From contig CAZSCV010000004.1 of the NCBI GenBank assembly GCA_964605525.1, forward strand, positions 38,667-102,666: 64,000 nt of DNA. Direction: 5' to 3'. The notes beneath the pieces are model-generated. The model saw only the letters and a program-made list of their open reading frames with translations, was not told the DNA's origin and did no database searches. This DNA comes from an uncultured Bdellovibrionales bacterium. Its GTDB lineage: Bacteria; Patescibacteriota; Minisyncoccia; Moranbacterales; UBA9337. Shown here in pieces: positions 15,023 through 59,749 of the stretch. Numbering within the stretch: position 1 is the first letter of the stretch; each line of letters opens with the position of its first letter. Made by a program: the position numbers and the translations under genes.

Positions 15023-17890
15023 TTACAAATATCTTCCGGTCCAGCTTTTCTTGTCTTTTTCAAGTTTGTCCGGGGTTCCTTGAAAAACAATTTTTCCTCC
15101 ATTGTCTCCTCCGTCCGGACCGAGTTCAACCACCCAATCAGCATTGCGGATAACATCAATATTATGTTCAACAGCAATAACAGTATTTCCCTTATCCACC
15201 AAGGCGTCCAGAACTTGGAGCAATTTTTTCACATCCGCAAAATGCAATCCGATTGTCGGTTCATCCAAAATATACAACGTTTTCCCTGTTGATTTTCGCG
15301 CCAACTCCGTCGCCAATTTGATGCGCTGGGCTTCTCCTCCGGAAAGATTGGTAGCGCTCTGCCCCAGCTTCAAATACCCCAACCCCACTTCATCCATAGT
15401 TCTCAATTTTTCATAAATCAAAGGATAGCGCTTGAAAAAAACCATCGCATAACTCACGCTCATATCCAAAACCTCGGCAATATTCACTCCTTGATATTCA
15501 ATCTCAAGTGTTTTTTTGTTATATCTAGTTCCTCCACAAACCTCGCATTTGACATACATATCCGGAAGTAAATGCATTTCTATTTTTCTCATTCCGTCCC
15601 CCTGACAAACCTCGCAACGTCCACCTTTCATATTGAAACTGAAACGGCTGGAAGTATATCCGCGATTCTGCGATTCTTCCGTCTGCGCAAAGATTTCCCG
15701 GATGTGGGAAAACAGTCCGGTATAAGTAGCGGCATTTGACCGCGGAGTTCTTCCGATCGGACTCTGACTGATATTGATAACTTTGTTCACATTTTCAATT
15801 CCTTTCAATTCTTTGTGTTTTCCAACGCTCGCTCTTGCTCCGTAAAAATGCTTGGAAAGCGCCTTTGCCAAAATGTCATTCACCAAGGTCGATTTTCCGC
15901 TTCCGCTCACACCGCAAACTACCACGAATTTTTCCAGCGGAATTTTGACGCTGATATCTTTCAGATTGTGTTCGCAAGCCTTAATTATTTCAATATTATT
16001 CTTGTTTCCTACGCGGAATTTTTTCTTGTCGGAAACTTTCTTTTTTCCGGAAATATACAAAGCAGTGGAGGTTTTCGATTTTTTCAAACTTTCATAATCA
16101 CCTTGAAAAATAAGCTCCCCGCCTTCTTCTCCGGCGCCCGGTCCCATATCAATCACCCAATCGGCCTCTCGGATGAAATCACTGTCGTGCTCAACGACAA
16201 CCAGTGAATTTCCTTCATCCCTTAAGGATTTGATTGTTTTAATCAGTTTTTCCGTATCCCGGCTGTGCAATCCGATTGAGGGCTCATCCAAAACGTAAAT
16301 TATACCCATCAATTGGGATTTTATTTGCACTGCCAAGCGGATTCTTTGCGCTTCCCCCCCGGAAATAGTTTTGGTTCCCCGCGACAAACTCAAATATTCC
16401 AATCCCACATTTTCCAAAGCTACCAGCCTTTCAATTATTTCCTTTATTAAAACCGCGGAAATTTCCTTATTGCGAATACTTTTATTTTTTTCTAAAAATT
16501 TTTGCAAATATTCTTTCAGATTGGATATGCTCATACTCGCAAAATCATCAATGGATTTTCCATCTATCAGCACATTGAGATATTCCTTTTTCAAACGTTT
16601 TCCCTGGCAAGAAGAACAAACTTTGGCAACCATATATTTCTCAATCTCATTGCGGACATAATCCGAATTTGTTTCCAAATATCTTCCTTCCAGAATAGGA
16701 ATTACTCCCCGGAACCTTTCAACTGATTTATGCGCGCCATCCAATTTGTTTTCCGGTCTGGCTTGGCTCAAATCACTTCCTGATTCTCCCCGCAAAATAA
16801 TATTCAGGTTCTGCACAGAAAGCTTTCCAATCGGAACATTAAGAGAAAATCTGTGTTTCCTGGCCAAATCACTCACCATTGTCCCGTATCCGTTTTCTCC
16901 CATCCTTCCTCCGGCCTTGCTCCACGGGCGGATCGCTCCTTCTGCCAAGGAAAGTTTTTTATTTGGAATAATCAAATCCGGATCAATTTCCATCTTTATA
17001 CCCAAACCGCTGCAATCGCAACAAGCTCCTTCCGGGTTATTAAAAGAAAAATGGCGCGGATTGATTTCTTTTATTTTTGTCTGGCAATTCTGGCAAATAT
17101 ATTCTTGATTGTATTGCAATTCTTTTTCTTGATTTACCAATATAATCATTGAGCCGTCTCCCAATTTCAAAGCTGTTTCAATTGAATCGGAAATCCGTTC
17201 CTCATCCAAATTCTTCTTGTTCAATTCAATCCGGTCAACCACAATATCCACATCGATAGACATTTTTTCCGTAACAATCATAAGCGCCTCGCTCACTGAT
17301 TTTATTTTGTTCTCAAATCTTACCCGGGCATATCCCAATTGCTGGATTTGGCGCAAAACATCCCTTGGGTTTTTTTCCTTTCCTCCATAACGAGAAAGAA
17401 TGGCAATTTGCGTTCCGGAAGGATAAGAAGACACTTCCGCAAGTATTTCTCTTTTTTCTTTTTTCTCCATCAAAACTCCGCATTGCAAACAATGCGGGTC
17501 GCCAACTTTGGCAAATAAAATTCGCAAATAATCATATATTTCCGTAAGGGTTCCAACTGTCGAGCGCGGACTGCGCACCACGCTTTTTTGATCAATGGAA
17601 ATTGTCGGACTGAGATTTTCAATCTTATCCACATCCGGCTTGGAGGACACATCCAAAAAATTGCGCGCGTAAGAAGAAAGCCCTTCCATATACCGGCGAT
17701 TTCCTTCGGCATAAATCGTATCAAACGCCAAGGAAGATTTTCCAGATCCGGAAAGCCCTGTAATAACAACGAATTTGTCGCGCGGAATATCAACGTCGAT
17801 ATTGCGCAAATTATTAACTTTGGCTCCCCGAACAATAATATGGCTTTTATCTTTTTTATTTTCTTTGGAGAGATTTTTCTTTCCGGACAT
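15023..17890 (-). CDS. uvrA: excinuclease ABC subunit A, divergent paralog (UvrA-like 1)
   Basis: Two ABC ATPase modules ([14 protein letters not shown]… and [14 protein letters not shown]…), zinc-finger Cys pairs; 955 aa. Confidence 0.9.
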
Positions 17891-52333: not shown

Positions 52334-53866
52334 TTATCGAGCGTATTCAACTGCGCGAGTTTCCCTCAAAACATTAACCTTTATTTCACCGGGATATTTC
52401 AATTCTTCCTCAATTTTTTCCGCAATGCTTTTTGCCAACTTAATCGCTCCGAAATCATCCACTTCTTCCGGCTTCACAAAAACCCGAATCTCTCTTCCTG
52501 CTTGGATAGCATATACTTTTTCCACTGCCGGGAAAGAAGAAGCCACTGCTTCCAATTCTTCCAAACGTTTGAGATAATTTTCCAAACTATCTTTTCTTGC
52601 TCCGGGACGCGAGGCTGAAATAGCATCCGCCGCCGCCACAATAAAAGATTCCGAGGTTTCGAATGGATATTCTTCGTGATGGGATTTCATCGCGTCAATA
52701 ACCTCTTTGGCAACGCCGAATTTTTCCAATATTTTAACTCCGATTTCCACATGGGTTCCTTGGATTTCATGATCCACTGCTTTGCCGATATCATGGAAAA
52801 GTCCGGCCTTTTTTGCCACTGCCACATCCGCTCCCAATTCAGCTGCCAAAGCTCCTGCCAAATGAGCCACTTCAACAGAATGAATCAAAACATTTTGCCC
52901 GAAACTGGTTCGGTAGCGCAATCTTCCAACCAAATACAAAAGCTTTGGATTTAATCCGACAATACCCAAATCATACGCCGCCGCCTCTCCGGCTTCACGA
53001 ACCTTATTATCCACTTCCTTTTTGGCATATTCAACTGCTTCGTCAATACGCGTCGGATGGATTCTTCCGTCTTCAATCAATTTACCCAATGCAATTCTGG
53101 CAATTTCGCGACGCACAGGATCAAAGCCTGAAATAACAATCGCCTCCGGCGTATCGTCAACGATAATTTCCACTCCGGTCGCCCTTTCTAATGCTTTGAT
53201 ATTCCGCCCTTCCCGACCGATAATTTTTCCCTTCAAATCATCTGATGGAATACTGATAGTGCTTGTTGTTACTTCAGCTGAATGCGAACCGGCATATTTT
53301 TGAATAGCTTGCGTCATGATTGAACGCGCCCTTTCTTCTAAAGCCTTTTTTCCTTCCTTTTCCAAGCGCGTAATTCTTTCCAGTAAAACTTCCTGATTTT
53401 CTTCTTCAGTAAGTTGCAATAAAATATTTTTTGCTTGTTCCTTATTTAATCCGGCAATTTTTTCCAAACGCATCAACTCTTCCTGCCGGGTTTTTTCTGT
53501 TTCAAGTTTTATATTTTTAATTTCTTCAACTTTTTTTTCCAAAGCGACTCTGCCCCGATCCAAATCTTCCATCTTCTTATCGATCATTTCTTCCCTCTTT
53601 TCAATTCTCTGCTCCATTCGATAAATTTGGCTTTCTCTTTCTTTTTCTTTTTTCTTGGCCTCTTCCAAAATTTCCACCGCTTTATTTTTTGCCTCAAGCC
53701 CTATTTCTTGCGCTTTTTTTTCGGCCTCTCTGATCATATTATTCACTTTCCCTTCAGCCGTCGACAGTTGTTTTTTTGCAATTGACTGGCGGGCATAGTA
53801 GCCCAAAATTGATCCCGCGGCCAAAGCCAAAACGGAAACAACTATAGCTATCAAGCTTATTTCCAT
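52334..53866 (-). CDS. rny: ribonuclease Y
   Basis: N-terminal TM, coiled coil, KH domain, HD domain (HSVEVAHLAG…HDIGK); 510 aa. Confidence 0.9.
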   Translation of the reverse strand: MEISLIAIVVSVLALAAGSILGYYARQSIAKKQLSTAEGKVNNMIREAEKKAQEIGLEAKNKAVEILEEAKKKEKERESQIYRMEQRIEKREEMIDKKMEDLDRGRVALEKKVEEIKNIKLETEKTRQEELMRLEKIAGLNKEQAKNILLQLTEEENQEVLLERITRLEKEGKKALEERARSIMTQAIQKYAGSHSAEVTTSTISIPSDDLKGKIIGREGRNIKALERATGVEIIVDDTPEAIVISGFDPVRREIARIALGKLIEDGRIHPTRIDEAVEYAKKEVDNKVREAGEAAAYDLGIVGLNPKLLYLVGRLRYRTSFGQNVLIHSVEVAHLAGALAAELGADVAVAKKAGLFHDIGKAVDHEIQGTHVEIGVKILEKFGVAKEVIDAMKSHHEEYPFETSESFIVAAADAISASRPGARKDSLENYLKRLEELEAVASSFPAVEKVYAIQAGREIRVFVKPEEVDDFGAIKLAKSIAEKIEEELKYPGEIKVNVLRETRAVEYAR

Positions 53867-54187
53867 ATTTTTTCATCTCCTATTCAATTGGGCAAAACAG
53901 AAACAAAGAATAAAGCCTTATTCCGAGAAAGGTAAAGCAAAATAAAGCACCGGCCCCTTGGCGAATGGCTTTAAAATATTTTCAGTTATTGCTTTTGTGC
54001 AAATATTGCTTAACATGCAAATCATAGTTTTTCTCTATATTTCCGAAAGTGCAAATTGAAAGGTTGTGTATAAATTTATTACTAGTAGCCATTCTATTAC
54101 ATAAACCAGCTTTTGTCAAAGACATTCAAAAATGTTAGAATGATAGGTAGTGAAATTAAAAATTTTTATAATAATTTTCTTTCTATT

Positions 54188-55753
54188 ATGTACAAACCCG
54201 TAGTTTTAATCATTTTGGACGGATGGGGTCTTTCCAGTAACAGGCAAGGAAATGCCATTTTCAAATCCCGCAAACCGTCCGTTGACAAATTGGACCAGTA
54301 TTATCCTTCAACCACTCTCCAGGCATCCGGAATTTCCGTGGGAATTCCTTGGGGAGAATCGGGAAACAGCGAGGTCGGGCATATGACACTCGGGGCGGGA
54401 AAAATAATCTATCAAAATCTTCCTCGTATCACTTTGTCAGTCCAAGATGGATCTTTTTTTCAAAATGAAGCGTTTCTGGAAGGAATGAACAAGGTCAATC
54501 AAAACAAAAGCTCTTTGCACTTGATGGGACTTATTGGTGAAGGAGCCGTCCACTCATATTCAGAACATCTGAACGCTCTTATTGAAATGGCAAAAATTCA
54601 GAAAATAGAAAGGCTTTATTTGCACCTAATCACTGACGGTCGCGATTCATCTCCAACCTGCGGAACAAAAATTATCAAGTCTCTTCAAGAAAAATTAAGA
54701 ATGAAAGGGATTGGAAAAATTGCCTCTGTTTGCGGAAGAAATTGGACGATGGATAGAAACAACAATTGGGGGCGCATAGAAAAAGGTTACAATTTGATGA
54801 CTCGAGGAGAAGGAGAGCAAATTTCTGATCCAATCAAATATCTCCAAGATTCTTACGCCAAGGGAATTACGGATGAATATATTGAACCGGGAGTAATTAC
54901 CGAAGGAGGAAAACCTGTCGCCTTAATACAAGATGGGGACACGGTTATTTTCTTTAATTTTCGGGAAGACCGCGCCAGGCAAATAACCAGGGCTTTTACC
55001 TTGCCGGAGTTTGATGGATTTAAGCGTGAAAAACGCCTGCAATTGAATTTCGTTACCATGACAGAATATGAAAAAGATTTGCCGGTTTCCGTCGCTTTCC
55101 CGCCGGAAGAAATAAAAAATGGATTGGGAGAAATACTCAGCCAAAACAGAAAAAAACAACTGCGCATCGCGGAAACAGAAAAATATGCCCATGTTACGTA
55201 TTTTTTCAATGGAGGAAAAGAAGAACCTTGGCCGGGAGAAGACCGGGTTTTGATCCCCTCCCCGTCCGTTTCCAAATTTGATCAGGCTCCGGAAATGAGC
55301 GCTGATAAAATAACTCAAAAAGTTATTGAGGCTTTGGAATTGGAAAAATATGATTTTATTTTAATAAATTATGCCAATGCCGATATGGTCGGGCATACCG
55401 GAAATGAAGAAGCCACTATTCGCGCAGTGGAAACTGTCGACAAAAATTTGGCTGATTTGATTCCGGCTGTTCTCAAAATTGGCGGATGCCTTTTGATAAC
55501 CGCCGACCATGGAAACGCCGAGGAACTGCAAAACTTGCGCACCGGAGAAATCAACACTGAACACTCCTCCAATCCCGTTCCACTTTGGTTTGTAGCTCCC
55601 GACAATCACCATGAAGAAAAGAAAATTGATACAGGAAGAGAGTTTAATCCAGGAGGACTTCTCAGCGACATTGCGCCAACCGTCCTCAGTATTATGAAAA
55701 TTGAACAACCTAAAGAAATGAACGGCGAAAGCTTACTACCACTTCTGAAATAA
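54188..55753 (+). CDS. gpmI: 2,3-bisphosphoglycerate-independent phosphoglycerate mutase
   Basis: MYKPVVLIILDGWGLS…SGISVGIPWGESGNSEVGHMTLGAG…; start at ATG 54188. Confidence 0.9.
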   Translation: MYKPVVLIILDGWGLSSNRQGNAIFKSRKPSVDKLDQYYPSTTLQASGISVGIPWGESGNSEVGHMTLGAGKIIYQNLPRITLSVQDGSFFQNEAFLEGMNKVNQNKSSLHLMGLIGEGAVHSYSEHLNALIEMAKIQKIERLYLHLITDGRDSSPTCGTKIIKSLQEKLRMKGIGKIASVCGRNWTMDRNNNWGRIEKGYNLMTRGEGEQISDPIKYLQDSYAKGITDEYIEPGVITEGGKPVALIQDGDTVIFFNFREDRARQITRAFTLPEFDGFKREKRLQLNFVTMTEYEKDLPVSVAFPPEEIKNGLGEILSQNRKKQLRIAETEKYAHVTYFFNGGKEEPWPGEDRVLIPSPSVSKFDQAPEMSADKITQKVIEALELEKYDFILINYANADMVGHTGNEEATIRAVETVDKNLADLIPAVLKIGGCLLITADHGNAEELQNLRTGEINTEHSSNPVPLWFVAPDNHHEEKKIDTGREFNPGGLLSDIAPTVLSIMKIEQPKEMNGESLLPLLK

Positions 55754-55805
55754 TTTCATACCACCTAAAAATCAGTTCGCACAATTAATAATCACTTACT
55801 TCACG

Positions 55806-55850
55806 CAAAAAAGTTGCAAATTTATACACATAAACAAATTTGCAACTTTT
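55806..55850. terminator. bidirectional terminator (15-bp arms) between gpmI and the RT gene
   Basis: aaaagttgcaaattt-atacacataaac-aaatttgcaactttt. Confidence 0.6.
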
Positions 55851-56890
55851 TATTTTTTAATAATTCTACTGATCTTTTTCTCAATCCCCCGCCCATCACA
55901 ATGCTTCAAAACTCCCAAATACGCCTGCAAACTTTGATTAAATTCTTCTTCTGAAATCAATCCTTCTTTCAATATTTTATGATTGAGAGATAATTTCTTC
56001 ATCATCCTCCTTTTCGTTTTCGTCCGCAAGACTCGATGATGCGGCAAAACCACATAACCCAGAAAATCAATGCCTTGCCGATATTTCCTGATGATTATTT
56101 TATTTGGATGTAAATTTAATTTCAGTTCATTTTGCAAAAAATCGCCAAGTTTTCCAATTAACTTTTCTAAATGTTTTTTATCTTCCGCCATAATTATGAA
56201 ATCGTCGCAATACCGCAAATAATATTTTTCTTTCAGGATATGTTTTGCAAATTGATCGAGTTCATTTAGATAGATATTAGCAAAGAGCTGGCTGATAACA
56301 TTTCCCAATGGCAGTCCTTTTGGAAAACTGTGAATTATTCTTTCTGTAAGCCAGATCGCATTTTCGTCTCGGATCTTTCTTTTGATAAGTTTCAGTAAAA
56401 TTTCCTGATCAATCGAATCGAAAAACTTTTTGATGTCGCATTTGAGAGTGAATATTTTTTTCTTATTGTTCTTACTTGCTTTTCTGGAAAATTCTTCAAA
56501 TCTTTTTACGCCTATATGTACTCCTTTATCAATCCTGCAGGAATACGAATCAAGAATAAAATTTTTATCAAAAATCGGATAAAGAATCCTGAAAATCGCA
56601 TGATGCAAAACTCTATCTTTCACCACAGCTTTGTGTATTTTTCGCAATTTTGGATCACAAACATTAAATGAGGTATAATCGGAATGCCGATAGGTTTTGT
56701 TTTTGAGTTCTTTGTGGAGATTGAAAATATTATCTTCCAATTTAAATTCGAATTGTTGCACGTCTATCTTTTTTGTTTTTCCTCTCTTAAATTCATTCCA
56801 CGCCAAAAATAAATTTTCCAAACTAATTATTTTTTTAAAAATACTATGACAGAAAAACTCACAATTAAGACCCCCCCCCAACGCTCTCAA
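55850..56890 (-). CDS. DGR-type reverse transcriptase
   Basis: RT motifs including RYCDDFIIMAED (YxDD box) and N-terminal LENLFLAWNEFKRGK; 346 aa. Listed ORF starts at TTG; an SD-preceded ATG at 56906 is one frame off across a (G)9 tract. Confidence 0.85.
   Translation of the reverse strand: MRALGGGLNCEFFCHSIFKKIISLENLFLAWNEFKRGKTKKIDVQQFEFKLEDNIFNLHKELKNKTYRHSDYTSFNVCDPKLRKIHKAVVKDRVLHHAIFRILYPIFDKNFILDSYSCRIDKGVHIGVKRFEEFSRKASKNNKKKIFTLKCDIKKFFDSIDQEILLKLIKRKIRDENAIWLTERIIHSFPKGLPLGNVISQLFANIYLNELDQFAKHILKEKYYLRYCDDFIIMAEDKKHLEKLIGKLGDFLQNELKLNLHPNKIIIRKYRQGIDFLGYVVLPHHRVLRTKTKRRMMKKLSLNHKILKEGLISEEEFNQSLQAYLGVLKHCDGRGIEKKISRIIKK
56871..56879. repeat. homopolymeric tract C9 (G9 on the coding strand) at the 5' end of the RT gene
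   Basis: With 8 G the ATG at 56906 (AGGA SD 7 nt upstream) would be in frame with the RT; with 9 it terminates after 13 codons. Confidence 0.6.
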
Positions 56891-56948
56891 TAAAATTGTC
56901 GCGCATAAAAATATCCTAAACTATAATCAACCGAAATTATTCTCTGAA

Positions 56949-57257
56949 TTGGAAAATTTGTACAGCGATTGTTATGACCGCGTAAAAAACTTTCCCAAGC
57001 TAGACAAACATCTTCTCGGAAAAGAAATTTTAACTTTTCTTAATGAGACTCAAAAATACTCATTAACCTCGATTCACAACAATTCTTATCTTCCTCTTGC
57101 AAGTGCTAATTTTGACTTATTCAAAAGATCGATTCGCGTTGCTGTAAATAAAAAAATTATTTCTATCGGATGGTACGGATCCCATTTGGAAATAATAATT
57201 TCCATCGGAAAAGAAATTGGCAGTTGGATCAAAAAAACAAAAAGCCCGAAGTTTTAG
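56949..57257 (+). CDS. avd: Avd-like accessory protein of the DGR (TTG start inferred)
   Basis: 102-codon open frame in AT-rich DNA; CYD near the N-terminus and the basic C-terminal …IGKEIGSWIKKTK resemble Bordetella-phage bAvd (…CYDQM…, …VGRILGSWIARVNRK). Opposite strand to RT, TR and target. Confidence 0.5.
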   Translation: MENLYSDCYDRVKNFPKLDKHLLGKEILTFLNETQKYSLTSIHNNSYLPLASANFDLFKRSIRVAVNKKIISIGWYGSHLEIIISIGKEIGSWIKKTKSPKF

Positions 57258-57359
57258 AGGGCGAGGCGCAACCGGTTGTTGCTATTAGAATTGCCGGCAT
57301 TGTTGGAATTGAGGTTGAACTCGCCGCCGTTCGAATTGGCGTTAGCGACTGAACAAATT
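57245..57359 (-). repeat. DGR template repeat (TR)
   Basis: 115 bp aligned without gaps to 57684-57798 at a constant +439 offset. On the minus strand the TR carries 12 AAY codons (NCSVANANSNGGEFNLNSNNAGNSNSNNRLRLAL); every one is substituted in the VR; only one non-A difference. Confidence 0.85.
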
Positions 57360-57581
57360 AGCGTTATTCCTTCCATAGTTTCGAAAAGAAGATTACTCTA
57401 CTTTTTATAACCTATCGCTTTAGGTCTCTGTTTGGACGCTGACATAAATTGATTTTTTCTCCATCCATAGAACAACGCTGAACTTCGGGTTTTGTTATGA
57501 GGAGAGCTTCGCGTACGAATACCCTACTGAACTCATTTTTTATTTTAGCATCTTTTTTTATTTTCCAAAAATTTTGAAAAT

Positions 57582-57611
57582 AAAAAAACCAGCGCATATT
57601 TCATCGCTGGT
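57582..57611 (-). terminator. rho-independent terminator after the DGR target gene
   Basis: Minus-strand accagcgatgaaatatgcgctggt followed by tttttttatttt. Confidence 0.5.
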
Positions 57612-57657
57612 CGAAGTTTGAAAAAATTCTAATCCAAGCTCCAAGGATCCACATCCT

Positions 57658-57675
57658 TTCGTCCTAGCGGACGAA
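57658..57675 (-). promoter_or_regulatory. hairpin (7-bp stem, 4-nt loop) immediately 3' of the VR, where DGR homing hairpins sit
   Basis: ttcgtcc-tagc-ggacgaa, 9 nt past the VR end; a GC-rich IMH-like gagggcgaggcgcaacc is identical in TR and VR. Confidence 0.45.
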
Positions 57676-57683
57676 AATCTGAA

Positions 57684-57798
57684 CCCGAAGAACTAGAGGG
57701 CGAGGCGCAACCGGTAGTCGCTATCCGAAAAGCCGGCATAGCTGGAAACGAGGATGAACTCGCCGCCGCGCGAATAGGCGCTAGCGACTGAACAAACA
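57684..57798 (-). repeat. DGR variable repeat (VR) at the 3' end of the target gene
   Basis: Encodes …VCSVASAYSRGGEFILVSSYAGFSDSDYRLRLAL*; differs from the TR at adenine positions only (aat->gtt, tat, ttt, gat; aac->agc, cgc, atc, gac, tac). Confidence 0.85.
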
Positions 57799-58766
57799 GG
57801 ACCGGTATTCTTGTCCTTATGTTCAATTAAATCCCTCCTCCACTCCCAAGTATTGGGAGCAAGATACTGCTCGTCATCAGCAAAAAGCTGAGCCTGCAGT
57901 ATAATACCTTCCGCGTGAGATATAACTCTCACACCCCTAACAACCGCCGAAACATACGACCGATTGTCAAGATTAACCGGTTCACCGTTTTTATTGACGA
58001 TTTTCTGATTGGCTGGGATGTCAGCCAAATTGCAGGTAAAAATCATCTCAACCGAATCCACTTTTACAAGCGGAACCGCATTCTTTCTGAGGACCCGCGA
58101 TTCCTCCACGACCCAGTTCCTCTTAAAGGCCTTCGTGCCAATTTCATCCGGTTCAATCGGATGGCATCCTTGTAAAAGCTCGCGGAGGGTGAGTTTTGTC
58201 CAGCGATTAGTCGTCCCTGCCTCCGCCCAAATTTTGAAGCCATCTTCCTTGAGCGGTTTCATAATCCGCTCAAAGAAAAACTCGGCTTCAGTCATTCGGA
58301 CTTCAGCAGCTTCGGTCAAGGCACTTGGCGTGGCCTTGATAAGAGCATAATTGAGACAGCCTACCTCAAGCCCCGCCTTAATTGCCGGAAGCCTTTTTTC
58401 CTCAACAAAAATTTTCCCGCGGTCAATACGGAAATCTGCTCCGTAAAAACGCTGGTAGAATTTTTCCTGTTTGGCGATCTGCCCATCCAGTCCGCCGGGC
58501 AGGAATTTTTCCAGATCATTCTCCTTGAGCCACGACAAAAATTCATCGTAGTCAAGAATCTGATCAGATACTTCTTCTTCGGCGCCATAACACAACACCC
58601 GAGCAAAGTCGACAATTTGTTGGCGTTTTCCGAGGTCGTCAATGATCATTTGTTCAATATCAAATGTCCACCCCGCCTCGAACAACCGACGAAACGCCTC
58701 ACTGTGTTTGCTGTATTTTTTGATAAAATCCGCCTCTGTCATTTGGTTCGCAACGGTATTCCCCAT
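57693..58766 (-). CDS. DGR target (variable) protein with C-terminal FGE/C-type-lectin-like VR-bearing fold
   Basis: C-terminus …NTWEWRRD…SRGGEF…GFSDSDYRLRLAL matches DGR variable-protein motifs (NVWEW … RGGSW … GFRL); no signal peptide; GC above local average. Confidence 0.8.
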   Translation of the reverse strand: MGNTVANQMTEADFIKKYSKHSEAFRRLFEAGWTFDIEQMIIDDLGKRQQIVDFARVLCYGAEEEVSDQILDYDEFLSWLKENDLEKFLPGGLDGQIAKQEKFYQRFYGADFRIDRGKIFVEEKRLPAIKAGLEVGCLNYALIKATPSALTEAAEVRMTEAEFFFERIMKPLKEDGFKIWAEAGTTNRWTKLTLRELLQGCHPIEPDEIGTKAFKRNWVVEESRVLRKNAVPLVKVDSVEMIFTCNLADIPANQKIVNKNGEPVNLDNRSYVSAVVRGVRVISHAEGIILQAQLFADDEQYLAPNTWEWRRDLIEHKDKNTGPVCSVASAYSRGGEFILVSSYAGFSDSDYRLRLAL

Positions 58767-58974
58767 CGCACACCTCCCTAAAAAATTTTAAGAACAAAGA
58801 AGTCCGAAAACTTCCACCACTTCGAGCCATTCTCGAAATGATACTCAATTGAAGCACCAAATTATCATTTTGTCAAATATGAATCTCGTTTTTGGCTTAA
58901 ATAAAGGCTTTTATTAGTTTTTTCAAAGTTCACCCTTCAATTTCTGTAAAAAACTCTCACACAATACTAAAAAA

Positions 58975-59022
58975 CTTGTCATTTTGTTGCAATTGCAACT
59001 TTTTGACAAGTTTTTTTGATTT
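58975..59022 (-). terminator. terminator after clpP (nested palindrome)
   Basis: aaacttgtc…gttgcaattgcaac…gacaagttt with a minus-strand T-run. Confidence 0.5.
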
Positions 59023-59030
59023 TGTCCTGC

Positions 59031-59624
59031 CTATTTAATTATCTTGTCCACAATTCCATATGCCTTGGCTTCTTCGGCGGACATAAAATTATCCCGTTCA
59101 CTGTCTTTTTCCACCTTGGCAACTTTTTGTCCGGTATGCTTGGCAAGGATTTTATTTAAATTATCTTTAGTTTTGAGAATATGCTTGGCGTGGATATCAA
59201 TATCTGTAGCCTGACCTTGCGCCCCGCCCATCACTTGATGAATCATCACTTCTCCGTTGGGCAAAATCATTCTTTTCCCCTTTTTTCCAGCCGCCAAAAG
59301 AAGCGAAGCGGCACTGGCTGCCAGCCCGACGCAAATCGTTTGAATATCCGGCCTGACATATTGCATCGTGTCATAAATAGCCATAGCGGAAGTAACCGAT
59401 CCTCCCGGAGAATTGATATATATTTTGATATCTTCCTTGGGATTTTGCGATTCCAAAAACAAAAGCTGGGCAATTACGGCATTTGCCATATTATCCTCAA
59501 TCACGCTACCGATAAAAATAATCCGGTCCTTGAGGAGTCTGGAATAAATATCATACGCCCGTTCTCCATAGTTGGTTTTTTCAATAACCGTTGGAATAAG
59601 AATTTGATTGGTTATATTTTTCAT
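59031..59624 (-). CDS. clpP: ATP-dependent Clp protease proteolytic subunit
   Basis: Catalytic Ser region [14 protein letters not shown] and His region, 197 aa. Confidence 0.95.
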
Positions 59625-59670
59625 ACTATTTTTAAAATTTATAACTTACACAATTAAGCAGATTCTCGAT

Positions 59671-59727
59671 TTCCTGAAAAATAATAAATTTTTGGTTTTC
59701 CGAAAAAATCATTATTTTTTTCGGAAT
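59671..59727. mobile_element. internally deleted copy (copy C) of the 154-bp TIR element, 45 bp upstream of clpP
   Basis: ttcctgaaaaataataaattttt-gg-ttttccgaaaaaatcattatttttttcggaa: both TIR-like arms without the core. Confidence 0.45.
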
Positions 59728-59749
59728 CCCCTGGGAAAAAGTCTGCCTC

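What the first reader, a model, noticed from the sequence alone, without database searches (positions are those of the whole stretch)
56871..56906. Homopolymeric G9 tract separates the DGR RT from its SD-preceded ATG
An ATG at 56906 with an AGGA SD 7 nt upstream reads MRDNFIESVGGGS* and stops right after the G9 tract (C9 on the plus strand, 56871-56879). With 8 G this frame would run straight into the RT body (…VGGGLNCEFF…). As sequenced, the RT can only start at TTG with no SD. A 9-nt homopolymer is very unusual in this AT-rich DNA. It could be a slipped-strand phase-variation switch for RT expression, or a homopolymer sequencing or assembly error.
Basis: seen in the sequence. Interest (0 to 1): 0.6.

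Follow-up and report, generated by a model that had tools for sequence, protein, structure and literature searches.

The report
Poly-G switch on a mutagenic retroelement
A run of nine G:C pairs lies where the start regions of two head-to-head genes of a diversity-generating retroelement (the reverse transcriptase and its helper Avd) overlap. About 100 related loci show it is a conserved, length-unstable tract that puts both genes in or out of frame, so it most likely acts as an on/off switch for targeted hypermutation, and it is set to "off" here.

Summary
On the minus strand, ATG 56906 (AGGA 7 nt upstream) reads MRDNFIESVGGGS* through G9 (56879..56871), the only G/C run longer than 7 in 64 kb. 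The DGR is real (TR/VR: 17 of 18 mismatches at TR adenines).

Its only ATG (56846) reads through the same tract as C9 and also stops (MTEKLTIKTPPQRSQ*). G8 or G11 restores both genes; G9 and G10 break both.

It is not an assembly slip: two further assemblies carry G9.

A G7-G12 tract sits at this junction in 54 related Patescibacteria loci. Runs of 8 or more number 55 at this site and 4 elsewhere in 575 kb.

Three near-identical populations differ at the tract and otherwise only inside the VR (G9/G10/G11; G8/G10; G8/G9). Relatives without a homopolymer are always in frame (4/4). A sister clade has (AC)n or (ACAGG)n at the same place.

VRs vary where in-frame alleles dominate and are invariant in out-of-frame populations, including this one.

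Best reading: a slipped-strand contingency switch for Avd and RT, here OFF. Switching, translation starts and RNA-level slippage remain untested. I found no prior report.

The parts
56871..56879 (.). G9:C9 homopolymer: G9 on the RT (minus) strand, C9 on the avd (plus) strand. This is the variable element.
   Evidence: It is the only G/C run longer than 7 in the window. A homologous G7-G12 tract is present in 54 related loci.
56865..56906 (-). RT leader ORF. ATG 56906 reads MRDNFIESVGGGS and stops at TAA 56867..56865. With G8 or G11 it fuses to the RT body.
   Evidence: Homologous leaders M(H/R/N/D)(Q/D/N)(R/N)xI..GGG(L/I/V) are in frame with the RT in many relatives.
56914..56917 (-). AGGA, an SD-like sequence 7 nt upstream of ATG 56906.
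   Evidence: It is not conserved in relatives, so its role is uncertain.
55850..56890 (-). DGR reverse transcriptase body. The open frame runs from TTG 56890, and the conserved N-terminal motif SIFKKIISLENLFLAW starts downstream of the tract.
   Evidence: RVT_1 E=3.6e-20; 6769 homologs, best 65-77% identical.
56846..56893 (+). avd leader ORF. ATG 56846 reads MTEKLTIKTPPQRSQ and stops at TAA 56891-56893. With C8 or C11 it fuses to the avd body. This ATG is the antisense of the His codon in the RT sequence ..CHSIF.
   Evidence: The homologous leader MTNYSPIKTPPNG.. is in frame in the G8 allele of Moranbacteria (sequence, translated by hand; that avd comes into frame at G8/G11 follows, L002 offset 2).
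56850..57257 (+). avd (accessory variability determinant) body frame. The first canonical start inside it is TTG 56949, which would remove about half of helix 1. In the repaired protein the bAvd match begins at residue 35.
   Evidence: bAvd-like PF22296: 36 bits, E about 1e-8, below the cut-off of 40, covering profile positions 7-106 of 107. The frame was analysed.
57245..57357 (-). Template repeat (TR).
57684..57796 (-). Variable repeat (VR) at the 3' end of the target gene.
   Evidence: 17 of 18 mismatches lie at TR adenines.
57693..58766 (-). DGR target gene (357 aa, no Pfam hit).

Best explanation
The G9:C9 tract is a hypermutable contingency tract that gates expression of both protein components of the DGR.

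In this DGR lineage, avd (plus strand) and the RT (minus strand) are head-to-head, and their 5' coding ends overlap antisense by about 60 nt. The RT starts at ATG 56906 and avd at ATG 56846. Each ATG is the antisense of a His codon in the partner's frame. The homopolymer lies in the middle of the overlap and reads Gly-Gly-Gly in the RT and Pro-Pro-Pro in Avd.

Slipped-strand mispairing at replication changes the tract by 1-2 nt. At 8 or 11 G:C both leaders join their gene bodies, giving a 351-aa RT and a 136-aa Avd, so cDNA synthesis and adenine mutagenesis of the VR are possible. At 9 or 10 both stop within 13-26 codons, so no RT-Avd complex forms and the VR is frozen. The window carries the OFF allele (one base too many).

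Shown: the anatomy, the frame arithmetic, the conservation, DNA-level length polymorphism in close relatives, and in-frame 'locked' relatives.

Inferred: the slippage mechanism, the use of the two ATGs, that protein output follows frame, and the bet-hedging role of diversifying versus locking in a VR.
For: (1) Frame arithmetic in the window: G8 and G11 restore both ORFs, while G9 and G10 truncate both.

(2) Conservation: a G7-G12 tract (mode 9-10) sits at the same junction in 54 unique related loci, among them 46 of the 80 genome-contig loci, a collection with one genome per species. G/C runs of 8 or more number 55 at this site and 4 elsewhere in 575 kb.

(3) No downstream starts: in tract loci avd has no in-frame ATG between the tract and its body, with one exception, and class-A RTs have none either. 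Translation from an ATG must therefore cross the tract.

(4) Coupling: the offset of the RT ATG equals the offset of the avd ATG in 28 of 28 overlap-type loci.

(5) Locked relatives: loci with the same 36-63 nt overlap but an interrupted or absent homopolymer (L010 GGTGGG, L013 GGAGGTGGC, L087, L096 group) are in frame for both genes, 4 of 4. Tract loci are in frame in 9 of 53 (Fisher p=0.006 for avd).

(6) DNA-level polymorphism in near-identical strains. In Wildermuthbacteria, G9 x7, G10 x2 and G11 x1 occur at 99.3% identity or more, and across eight of these contigs the only other variable sites in 3.3 kb lie in the VR. In Moranbacteria, G8 and G10 alleles have 0 mismatches over 3369 nt. 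In Portnoybacteria, G8 and G9 alleles have 0 mismatches over 3051 nt. All three frame states also occur inside several 90%-identity protein clusters.

(7) Other repeat types at the same place in a sister clade: (ACAGG)9 in L044, (AC)9 in L049 (both in frame) and (AC)8 in L045 (out of frame). This argues for selection on mutability rather than on poly-G itself.

(8) Functional correlate: ON-majority populations have hypervariable VRs. In Pop1, 24 of 28 variable columns are TR adenines, and in Pop4 every listed mismatch between G8 contigs lies at the 3' end of the target gene. OFF populations have invariant VRs: the window species, the P0082 species with 5 samples and 0 mismatches in 3.9 kb, and Moranbacteria.

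(9) The length spectrum matches C. jejuni polyG contingency loci: modal length 9, G8 insertion-biased, G11 deletion-biased (PMC3401435).
Against: No length variation was seen in this species: three assemblies all carry G9, and the ClpP look-up found no further contig across the tract. Two other species were also monomorphic.

Among tract loci the frame states are not enriched for ON and are not uniform. The 'ON+1' state makes up 30 of 53. This could mean that the state is itself functional through +1 ribosomal frameshifting (CCC-C, GGG-G) or loss of one nucleotide in the mRNA.

Extra ATGs in other frames can uncouple the two genes. In the P0082 species avd is in frame at G9 while the RT is not.

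Start codons are inferred, and the AGGA is not conserved. The correlation between VR diversity and frame state rests on only five populations. No read-level, RNA or protein data are available.
Confidence: 0.68

Rival explanations
1. Recoding at the RNA or ribosome level is the main mechanism. The tract would be a programmed slippery site: RNA polymerase stuttering on G9/C9, or +1 ribosomal frameshifting on CCC-C (tRNA-Pro) and on GGG-G (GGG is presumably a rare codon in this A+T-rich genome; codon usage was not measured). Both proteins would then be made at a low, constant level whatever the DNA length, and G9 would be a working allele rather than OFF.
For: The 'one base too many' state, which needs exactly a +1 ribosomal shift or a 1-nt deletion in the mRNA, is the commonest: 30 of 53 loci, chi-square p=0.001, not corrected for phylogeny. 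It is fixed across samples in this species and in the P0082 species. All tracts are 7 nt or longer. From general knowledge, not tested here: homopolymers of 9 or more support transcriptional slippage (Thermus dnaX, Shigella mxiE, endosymbiont poly(A) rescue), and CCC-C is a classic +1 frameshift site.
Against: DNA-level length polymorphism is demonstrated and is the only non-VR difference between near-identical strains. In-frame alleles exist and dominate two populations. Locked relatives are all in the in-frame register, not the +1 register. Dinucleotide and pentanucleotide repeats at the same site are not known slippery sites for RNAP or ribosomes. VRs are invariant in the three out-of-frame populations. 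From general knowledge, slippage is best documented on A/T runs. The insertion bias of short G tracts can explain an excess of ON+1.
Confidence: 0.17
2. The tract is a non-coding spacer in overlapping divergent promoters or 5' UTRs. The true starts of the RT and avd would lie on the far side of the tract, and tract length would tune transcription, as in promoter-located repeats. The upstream ATGs would be irrelevant.
For: In a sister sub-family (17 loci, e.g. L034, L055, L063, L070) the RT has its own ATG 11-28 nt downstream of the tract. Reading the sequences by eye, in several of these (e.g. L034, L055, L063, L070) that ATG follows a -10-like TAnnnT placed directly after the G run. This looks like a leaderless mRNA with the tract in the promoter spacer. 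The AGGA in the window is not conserved.
Against: In the window and in the overlap-type loci there is no ATG, GTG or TTG between the tract and the conserved N-terminal residues of either protein. The window's nearest starts would delete conserved sequence: RT TTG 56822 and avd TTG 56949. Both ATGs are conserved as antisense His codons. Locked relatives keep both long ORFs in frame, 4 of 4. The promoter scan of the window region was not above shuffled controls.
Confidence: 0.06
3. This is simple decay. The DGR in this genome would be a dying element that picked up a frameshift, and the tract would have no regulatory meaning.
For: Both genes are disrupted as sequenced. The VR is identical in the available assemblies. 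One related lineage (the P0169 species) carries an in-frame TAG in its RT in all contigs.
Against: Apart from the tract, the RT and avd frames are intact and conserved. The same single site is the 'lesion' in about five-sixths of species (44 of 53 tract loci out of register), while the homopolymer itself is preserved uninterrupted in 38% G+C genomes across RTs down to about 50% identity. In-frame and out-of-frame alleles coexist in otherwise identical strains.
Confidence: 0.06
4. The G9 is a homopolymer sequencing or assembly error, and the true length is G8.
For: Homopolymers are error-prone in principle. Raw reads are not available here.
Against: G9 is reproduced in independent sample assemblies made with different k-mer sizes, one of which has a nearby SNP. 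Alleles in related populations are each supported by several contigs from different samples and pipelines. In the eight-contig Wildermuthbacteria alignment the only indels are at the tract and one inside the VR; no A/T run differs in length.
Confidence: 0.03

Closest known systems
Intragenic polyG/polyC contingency loci of Campylobacter jejuni, Helicobacter and Neisseria (e.g. cj1139 G8, cj0031 G9; meningococcal hmbR/hpuA poly-G)
   Same: A G/C homopolymer of 8-11 near the 5' end of a coding region in an A+T-rich genome. The modal length is 9. Changes of 1 nt toggle the reading frame. Alleles differ between otherwise identical strains (PMC3401435).
   Different: The gated function is a diversity-generating retroelement rather than a surface structure or restriction-modification enzyme. 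One tract serves two antisense-overlapping ORFs at once. The hosts are uncultivated Patescibacteria. Switching rates have not been measured.
Haemophilus influenzae hifA/hifB fimbrial switch, with (TA)n in overlapping divergent promoters (from general knowledge, not checked here)
   Same: A single simple repeat placed between two divergently transcribed genes controls both together.
   Different: The hif repeat acts through -35/-10 spacing (transcription). Here the repeat lies inside both coding leaders and acts through the reading frame. A promoter-spacer role is plausible only for the sister sub-family whose RT ATG lies downstream of the tract.
Prototype DGR of Bordetella phage BPP-1 (avd-TR-brt) and Patescibacteria DGRs (DGR clade 2 of Roux et al. 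2021, PMC8144416)
   Same: RT with the motif LGNVISQ (seen in the translation), a bAvd-like accessory protein, a TR/VR pair with adenine-specific differences, and a VR at the 3' end of the target gene.
   Different: avd is inverted and overlaps the RT head-to-head. Both carry N-terminal extensions encoded by the shared segment. Expression is interrupted by a variable homopolymer. The surveys I could read (PMC5758913, PMC8144416) do not mention homopolymers or phase variation.
Programmed transcriptional slippage and polymerase-infidelity rescue at homopolymers (Thermus dnaX A9, Shigella mxiE, endosymbiont poly(A) tracts), and +1 frameshifting at CCC-C (from general knowledge)
   Same: A long homopolymer separates a start codon from an out-of-frame body.
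   Different: In those systems the DNA length is fixed and the out-of-frame arrangement is the conserved, working state. Here the DNA length itself varies, in-frame alleles are common, and non-homopolymer repeats substitute at the same site.
Phasevarions: phase-variable mod methyltransferases switched by SSRs (PMC5909438, title and abstract seen)
   Same: A simple repeat stochastically switches an enzyme whose activity in turn generates population heterogeneity.
   Different: The downstream effect there is epigenetic and genome-wide. Here it would be targeted adenine mutagenesis of one protein's variable region.

Membership tests
Diversity-generating retroelement (DGR) | Reverse transcriptase of the RVT_1 fold | tested here: met
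   PF00078 E=3.6e-20. There are thousands of homologs, and the named ones in the listed hits are Patescibacteria RTs.
Diversity-generating retroelement (DGR) | TR/VR near-repeat whose differences are at TR adenines | tested here: met
   113-nt repeat with 18 mismatches, 17 at TR adenines; 17 of the 29 TR adenines are changed.
Diversity-generating retroelement (DGR) | VR at the 3' end of a target ORF near the RT | tested here: met
   VR 57796..57684 lies at the end of ORF 58766..57693.
Diversity-generating retroelement (DGR) | Accessory variability determinant (Avd) | tested here: inconclusive
   The bAvd-like match covers profile positions 7-106 of 107 with E about 1e-8, but scores 36 bits, below Pfam's cut-off of 40. 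In several looked-up relatives the called avd gene has an unmarked PF22296 hit on record.
Diversity-generating retroelement (DGR) | Ongoing mutagenic retrohoming | tested here: inconclusive
   Past activity is implied by the TR/VR pattern. No VR difference exists among the assemblies of this species. Activity is shown in a related population, where 24 of 28 variable columns are TR adenines.
SSR-mediated phase variation (contingency locus) | Simple repeat inside a 5' coding region or promoter, over-represented relative to base composition | tested here: met
   It is the only G/C run longer than 7 in 64 kb, with 0.07-0.23 expected. Runs of 8 or more number 55 at the site and 4 elsewhere in 575 kb of related loci.
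SSR-mediated phase variation (contingency locus) | Repeat-number change toggles the reading frame | tested here: met
   In silico, G8 and G11 are in frame and G9 and G10 are truncated, for both the RT and avd.
SSR-mediated phase variation (contingency locus) | Repeat-length polymorphism among otherwise identical genomes | tested here: inconclusive
   Met in three related populations. Not seen in this species, though only three assemblies cover the tract and all carry G9.
SSR-mediated phase variation (contingency locus) | High-frequency, reversible switching within a clonal population, with matching change in expression | not testable with these tools
   This needs raw reads, cultures or reporters.
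Programmed transcriptional slippage / ribosomal frameshift (recoding) | Out-of-frame arrangement with a fixed DNA tract length conserved across members | tested here: not met
   Length ranges from 7 to 12 and all three registers occur, even within 90%-identity clusters and in strains at least 99.3% identical.
Programmed transcriptional slippage / ribosomal frameshift (recoding) | mRNA length heterogeneity or trans-frame protein product | not testable with these tools
   No transcript or protein data are available.

The most novel reading that the evidence does not exclude
A large clade of Patescibacteria DGRs has evolved a master on/off switch for targeted hypermutation. A single hypermutable repeat (poly-G:C, or (AC)n / (ACAGG)n in a sister clade) lies in the antisense-overlapping 5' coding leaders of avd and the RT. 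Replication slippage would then heritably but reversibly turn the whole mutagenesis machinery on or off, letting a lineage alternate between diversifying a binding protein and locking in a useful variant. The excess of 'ON+1' alleles could mark a third, low-output state rescued by +1 frameshifting.
Probability: 0.5. Interest if true: 0.85.

Novelty: new variant of a known kind. Interest (0 to 1): 0.8.

Why it matters
I am not aware of an established account of how DGR mutagenesis is switched on and off in nature, and the DGR papers I could read do not describe one. A conserved, naturally polymorphic repeat that gates both Avd and the RT would be such a regulatory layer.

It would also be, as far as the searched literature shows, the first case of classical simple-repeat phase variation in Candidate Phyla Radiation bacteria. 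One repeat serving two antisense-overlapping genes is an unusual arrangement.

It makes a testable prediction with existing metagenome time series: VR diversification should track the fraction of in-frame tract alleles.

There is a practical consequence too. Gene callers truncate or drop avd and the RT start at these loci, so DGR surveys may misannotate them or misjudge which are 'active'.

Tried and rejected
- Known RNA: an Rfam scan of 55800-58900 gave only two chance-level hits (E about 0.8), neither at the tract.
- RNA structure: the TR-to-RT minus-strand RNA folds no better than shuffles (z=-0.7), so there is no support for a structural role of the G run.
- Promoters: the sigma-70 and terminator scan around the junction found 3 sites against 2.9 expected, which is uninformative.
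- ON allele in this species: looking up the RT as called (P0001) and the neighbouring ClpP found only G9 contigs, or contigs that end inside the target gene.
- Short gene calls: I first took short calls (MAW.., MDVQ..) as evidence of frameshift and then dropped this. The G9 in-frame Wildermuthbacteria contigs are also called short, probably because the caller avoids the antisense overlap with avd.
- Secondary ATGs: these do not explain the ON+1 excess, because most such loci have no in-frame ATG for either gene.
- Literature: seven text searches or reads for DGR, CPR or Patescibacteria together with homopolymer, phase variation or slipped-strand found nothing relevant. Paul et al. 2017 (CPR DGRs) was not held under the PMC id I recalled.
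- Sequencing error and simple pseudogenisation were considered and rejected (see rival explanations).
Full report
1. THE OBSERVATION

The minus strand reads AGGA (56917..56914), then 7 nt, then ATG (56906). The ORF is ATG CGC GAC AAT TTT ATT GAG AGC GTT GGG GGG GGG TCT TAA, which translates to MRDNFIESVGGGS*. The G9 tract is at 56879..56871.

Removing one G gives a 351-aa ORF, MRDNFIESVGGGLNCEFFCHSIFKKIISLENLF..., which is the RT. G11 does the same. G9 and G10 truncate it.

The tract is the only G or C run longer than 7 in the 64-kb window, which is 38% G+C. The expected number of runs of 9 or more is 0.07-0.23.

The RT ORF (56890..55850) is RVT_1. It belongs to a genuine DGR. TR 57357..57245 and VR 57796..57684 differ at 18 positions, 17 of them TR adenines. 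The VR ends the 357-aa ORF 58766..57693.

The plus-strand frame 56850-57257 is bAvd-like. It covers profile positions 7-106 of 107 with E about 1e-8 and 36 bits, against a cut-off of 40. Its first canonical start inside that frame is TTG 56949, which would delete about half of helix 1.

The only ATG that can serve it is at 56846. This ATG is the antisense of the His codon in the RT's ..CHSIF.. sequence. It reads ATG ACA GAA AAA CTC ACA ATT AAG ACC CCC CCC CAA CGC TCT CAA TAA, or MTEKLTIKTPPQRSQ*.

With C8 or C11 the ORF continues as MTEKLTIKTPP(P)NALNKIVAHKNILNYNQPKLFSELENLY..., a 136-aa Avd.

The RT ATG at 56906 is likewise the antisense of the His codon in Avd's ..VAHK.. sequence. The two genes therefore overlap head-to-head by about 60 nt, with the homopolymer in the middle. 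It reads GGG in one gene and PPP in the other. One tract length (2 mod 3) puts both in frame, and the sequenced G9 breaks both.

3. NOT AN ASSEMBLY ERROR

The RT as called in public data (P0001) lies on two ENA contigs from other samples. L081 is 100% identical to window 59806..52850. L082 has a single SNP 9 nt upstream of the tract. Both carry G9.

A look-up through the neighbouring ClpP found no further contig that crosses the tract. Two contigs, among them NCBI VMGV01000017.1, end inside the target gene.

4. THE TRACT IS A CONSERVED FEATURE OF A LARGE DGR CLADE

RT homologs frequently begin M(H/R/N/D)(Q/D/N)(R/N)xI....GGG(L/I/V)....IFEKIISLENLF. Two examples are P0008 (MRDNFVRSLGGGINSH) and P0084 (..MDNRNIESVGGG). 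G11 and G12 of the query are more than 90% conserved.

Of the 80 best RT loci from the genome collection, which holds one genome per species (Patescibacteria, going by the record titles of most), 46 have an uninterrupted G7-G12 run at this position. With metagenome loci the total is 54 unique loci: G7 x1, G8 x6, G9 x21, G10 x19, G11 x6, G12 x1.

In 575 kb of these loci, G/C runs of 8 or more occur 55 times at this site and 4 times elsewhere.

In an NJ tree of the RTs, the tract-bearing loci form two large groups:
- Class A, like the window, has the RT ATG upstream of the tract.
- Class B has the RT ATG 11-28 nt downstream, so the tract lies only in the avd leader.

Loci without a tract have avd and the RT back-to-back with 0-5 nt between their ATGs.

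5. THE LEADERS ARE REAL CODING SEQUENCE

- In tract loci avd has no in-frame ATG between the tract and its body, with one exception. Class-A RTs have none either.
- In 28 of 28 class-A loci the frame offset of the RT ATG equals that of the avd ATG. This follows from both ATGs being antisense His codons of the partner.
- Four lineages keep the 36-63 nt overlap but have lost the homopolymer: L010 (GGT GGG), L013 (GGA GGT GGC), L087 and the L088/89/90/96 group. In all four both genes are in frame with their ATGs.
- A test that does not depend on identifying ATGs, the register between the two body frames, gives 4 of 4 in register for locked loci and 9 of 53 for tract loci (Fisher p=0.006 for avd).

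When the repeat is gone, selection keeps the long ORFs. When it is present, the frame floats.

6. THE TRACT LENGTH CHANGES AT THE DNA LEVEL BETWEEN NEAR-IDENTICAL STRAINS

- Wildermuthbacteria: ten contigs from ten samples are at least 99.3% identical over 3.3 kb. Seven carry G9, which is in frame for both genes (MNQRSFKPFGGGRRKKIFHNIFEEIIS). Two carry G10 and one carries G11. avd is not even called in the G10 and G11 contigs. In an eight-contig alignment the only variable columns are 29 in or at the edge of the VR and the tract. Of the 28 substitution columns among them, 24 are TR adenines, so the DGR is active there.
- Moranbacteria: eight shown contigs carry G10 (out of frame) and three carry G8 (in frame). 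They differ by 0 mismatches and one 2-nt gap over 3369 nt. Examples are NCBI LBQA01000003.1 (G8) against LBQR01000040.1 and LBPZ01000059.1 (G10).
- Portnoybacteria: G8 in eight contigs against G9 in MHMZ01000012.1, with 0 mismatches and one 1-nt gap over 3051 nt.

Inside 90%-identity protein clusters the N-termini show all frame states. Examples are MRQRNIKPIGGG against MLSPSGGG, and MNNRGIIPGGG against ..EQQGHYTGGG.

Three populations were monomorphic: this species, the P0082 species (five samples, G9) and the P0169 species (G10).

7. OTHER REPEAT TYPES AT THE SAME PLACE

In a sister clade lacking poly-G, the avd 5' coding region at the same junction carries other repeats:
- L044 has (ACAGG)9, in frame: MNNYPSEGSGQDRTGQDRTGQDRTGNDFNIPIF..
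- L049 has (AC)9, in frame: MNKDNHTHTHTPIVGLDIPIF..
- L045 has (AC)8, out of frame.

Three unrelated repeat types at one functional position argue for selection on mutability. They argue against a poly-G-specific structural or protein role.

8. FUNCTIONAL CORRELATE (SMALL SAMPLE)

The two populations dominated by in-frame alleles have hypervariable VRs.

The three populations seen only or mainly in out-of-frame states have invariant VRs:
- The window species has 1 SNP in 4.5 kb, and it is not in the VR.
- The P0082 species has 0 differences in 3.9 kb across five samples.
- Moranbacteria G10 and G8 contigs have identical VRs.

9. MECHANISM

The best-supported reading is a slipped-strand contingency switch in which G8 and G11 are ON and G9 and G10 are OFF for both Avd and the RT. 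The window allele is OFF.

The length spectrum (mode 9-10) resembles C. jejuni polyG/C tracts. There the modal length is 9, G8 mutates mainly by insertion and G11 mainly by deletion (PMC3401435).

Still inferred: that the two ATGs are used, that protein output follows frame, the switching rate, and the adaptive role.

10. AN UNEXPLAINED POINT

Among tract loci the 'one base too many' register is over-represented: 30 of 53, against 9 in frame and 14 in the other state (p=0.001, not corrected for phylogeny).

Insertion-biased slippage out of ON, combined with selection for OFF, could produce this. So could a leaky rescue of that state by +1 ribosomal frameshifting (CCC-C, GGG-G) or a 1-nt loss in the mRNA. 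The latter is the main rival reading.

The invariant VRs of two such populations argue against strong leakiness, but they do not exclude it.

11. OTHER CHECKS

There is no Rfam family at the tract. The TR-to-RT RNA has no significant fold. The promoter scan was not above shuffles. The AGGA upstream of ATG 56906 is not conserved in relatives.

12. COMPARISON AND NOVELTY

The element works like the intragenic polyG contingency loci of Campylobacter and Neisseria. It also recalls the single-repeat, two-gene hif switch of H. influenzae (from general knowledge).

It differs in three ways. The gated function is a DGR. One repeat serves two antisense-overlapping genes. The hosts are CPR bacteria.

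Seven searches or reads of the held literature found no link between DGRs or CPR bacteria and homopolymers or phase variation. The main CPR-DGR paper could not be fetched under the id I recalled.

I rate it a new variant of a known kind. Interest is 0.8 and confidence in the phase-variation reading is about 0.68.

Noticed in passing
window 56846-56906 (both strands): avd and the RT are divergent and, in the in-frame state, overlap head-to-head by about 60 nt. Each gene's ATG is the antisense of a His codon of the other. Gene callers consequently truncate the RT (318 aa in ENA), and no avd gene is called at all in the ENA contigs of this species.
   Followed up: yes
L044 (Daviesbacteria), L045, L049: the 80 nt upstream of the RT anchor: A sister clade has (ACAGG)9 or (AC)8-9 instead of poly-G in the avd 5' coding region at the same junction. 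L044 and L049 are in frame and L045 is out of frame.
   Followed up: partly
L098 2060-2069: A tract-less (class N) RT carries an internal G10, inside an insertion just upstream of the GLPIGNITSQIF motif. As assembled, the RT is split between two frames there. This may be an independent homopolymer switch inside an RT.
   Followed up: partly
L065 2621-2630; L048 2139-2148: In L065 a G10 lies just 3' of what looks by eye like the template repeat (AAC-rich sequence; no TR/VR search was run on this locus), between it and the antisense avd. L048 has a C10 about 860 nt upstream of the RT. Neither was examined further.
   Followed up: no
L123-L132 (P0169 species), about 40 nt upstream of the called RT start: All contigs of this Moranbacteria population have an in-frame TAG in the conserved DVQQFEF motif (DV*QFEF). 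The RT is probably dead, yet the G10 tract is retained.
   Followed up: no
Class-B loci, e.g. L059, L063, L070 (30 nt either side of the tract): Immediately upstream of the G run is an inverted repeat (CTTTTGCCA-N4-TGGCAAAAG, with variants). Immediately downstream is a -10-like TAnnnT followed by about 7 nt and the RT ATG, which suggests a leaderless RT mRNA with the tract in the promoter spacer.
   Followed up: no
53 tract-bearing loci: The 'in-frame length + 1' register is over-represented (30 of 53), whatever the absolute tract length. The window is in this state.
   Followed up: partly
L100-L104 (P0082 species): A second ATG 7 nt downstream of the primary avd ATG (ATGACAAATGGCA) puts avd in frame at G9 while the RT stays out of frame. 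Extra ATGs can therefore uncouple the two genes. L061 has RT-side ATGs in all three frames.
   Followed up: partly
L146 (ERZ27284377) and L147 (NCBI VMGV01000017.1), window species: Both contigs end inside the DGR target gene, and L146 ends at about residue 327 of 357, i.e. at the start of the VR. This could reflect VR heterogeneity or the TR/VR repeat breaking the assembly.
   Followed up: no
L082, equivalent to window 56888: The only difference between two assemblies of this species over 4.5 kb is a G-to-T SNP on the RT strand (GAGAGC to GATAGC), 9 nt upstream of the tract inside both leaders.
   Followed up: no
window 16354-16360: The second-longest G/C run in the window is a C7 inside a 955-aa minus-strand ORF (15023..17890).
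   Followed up: no
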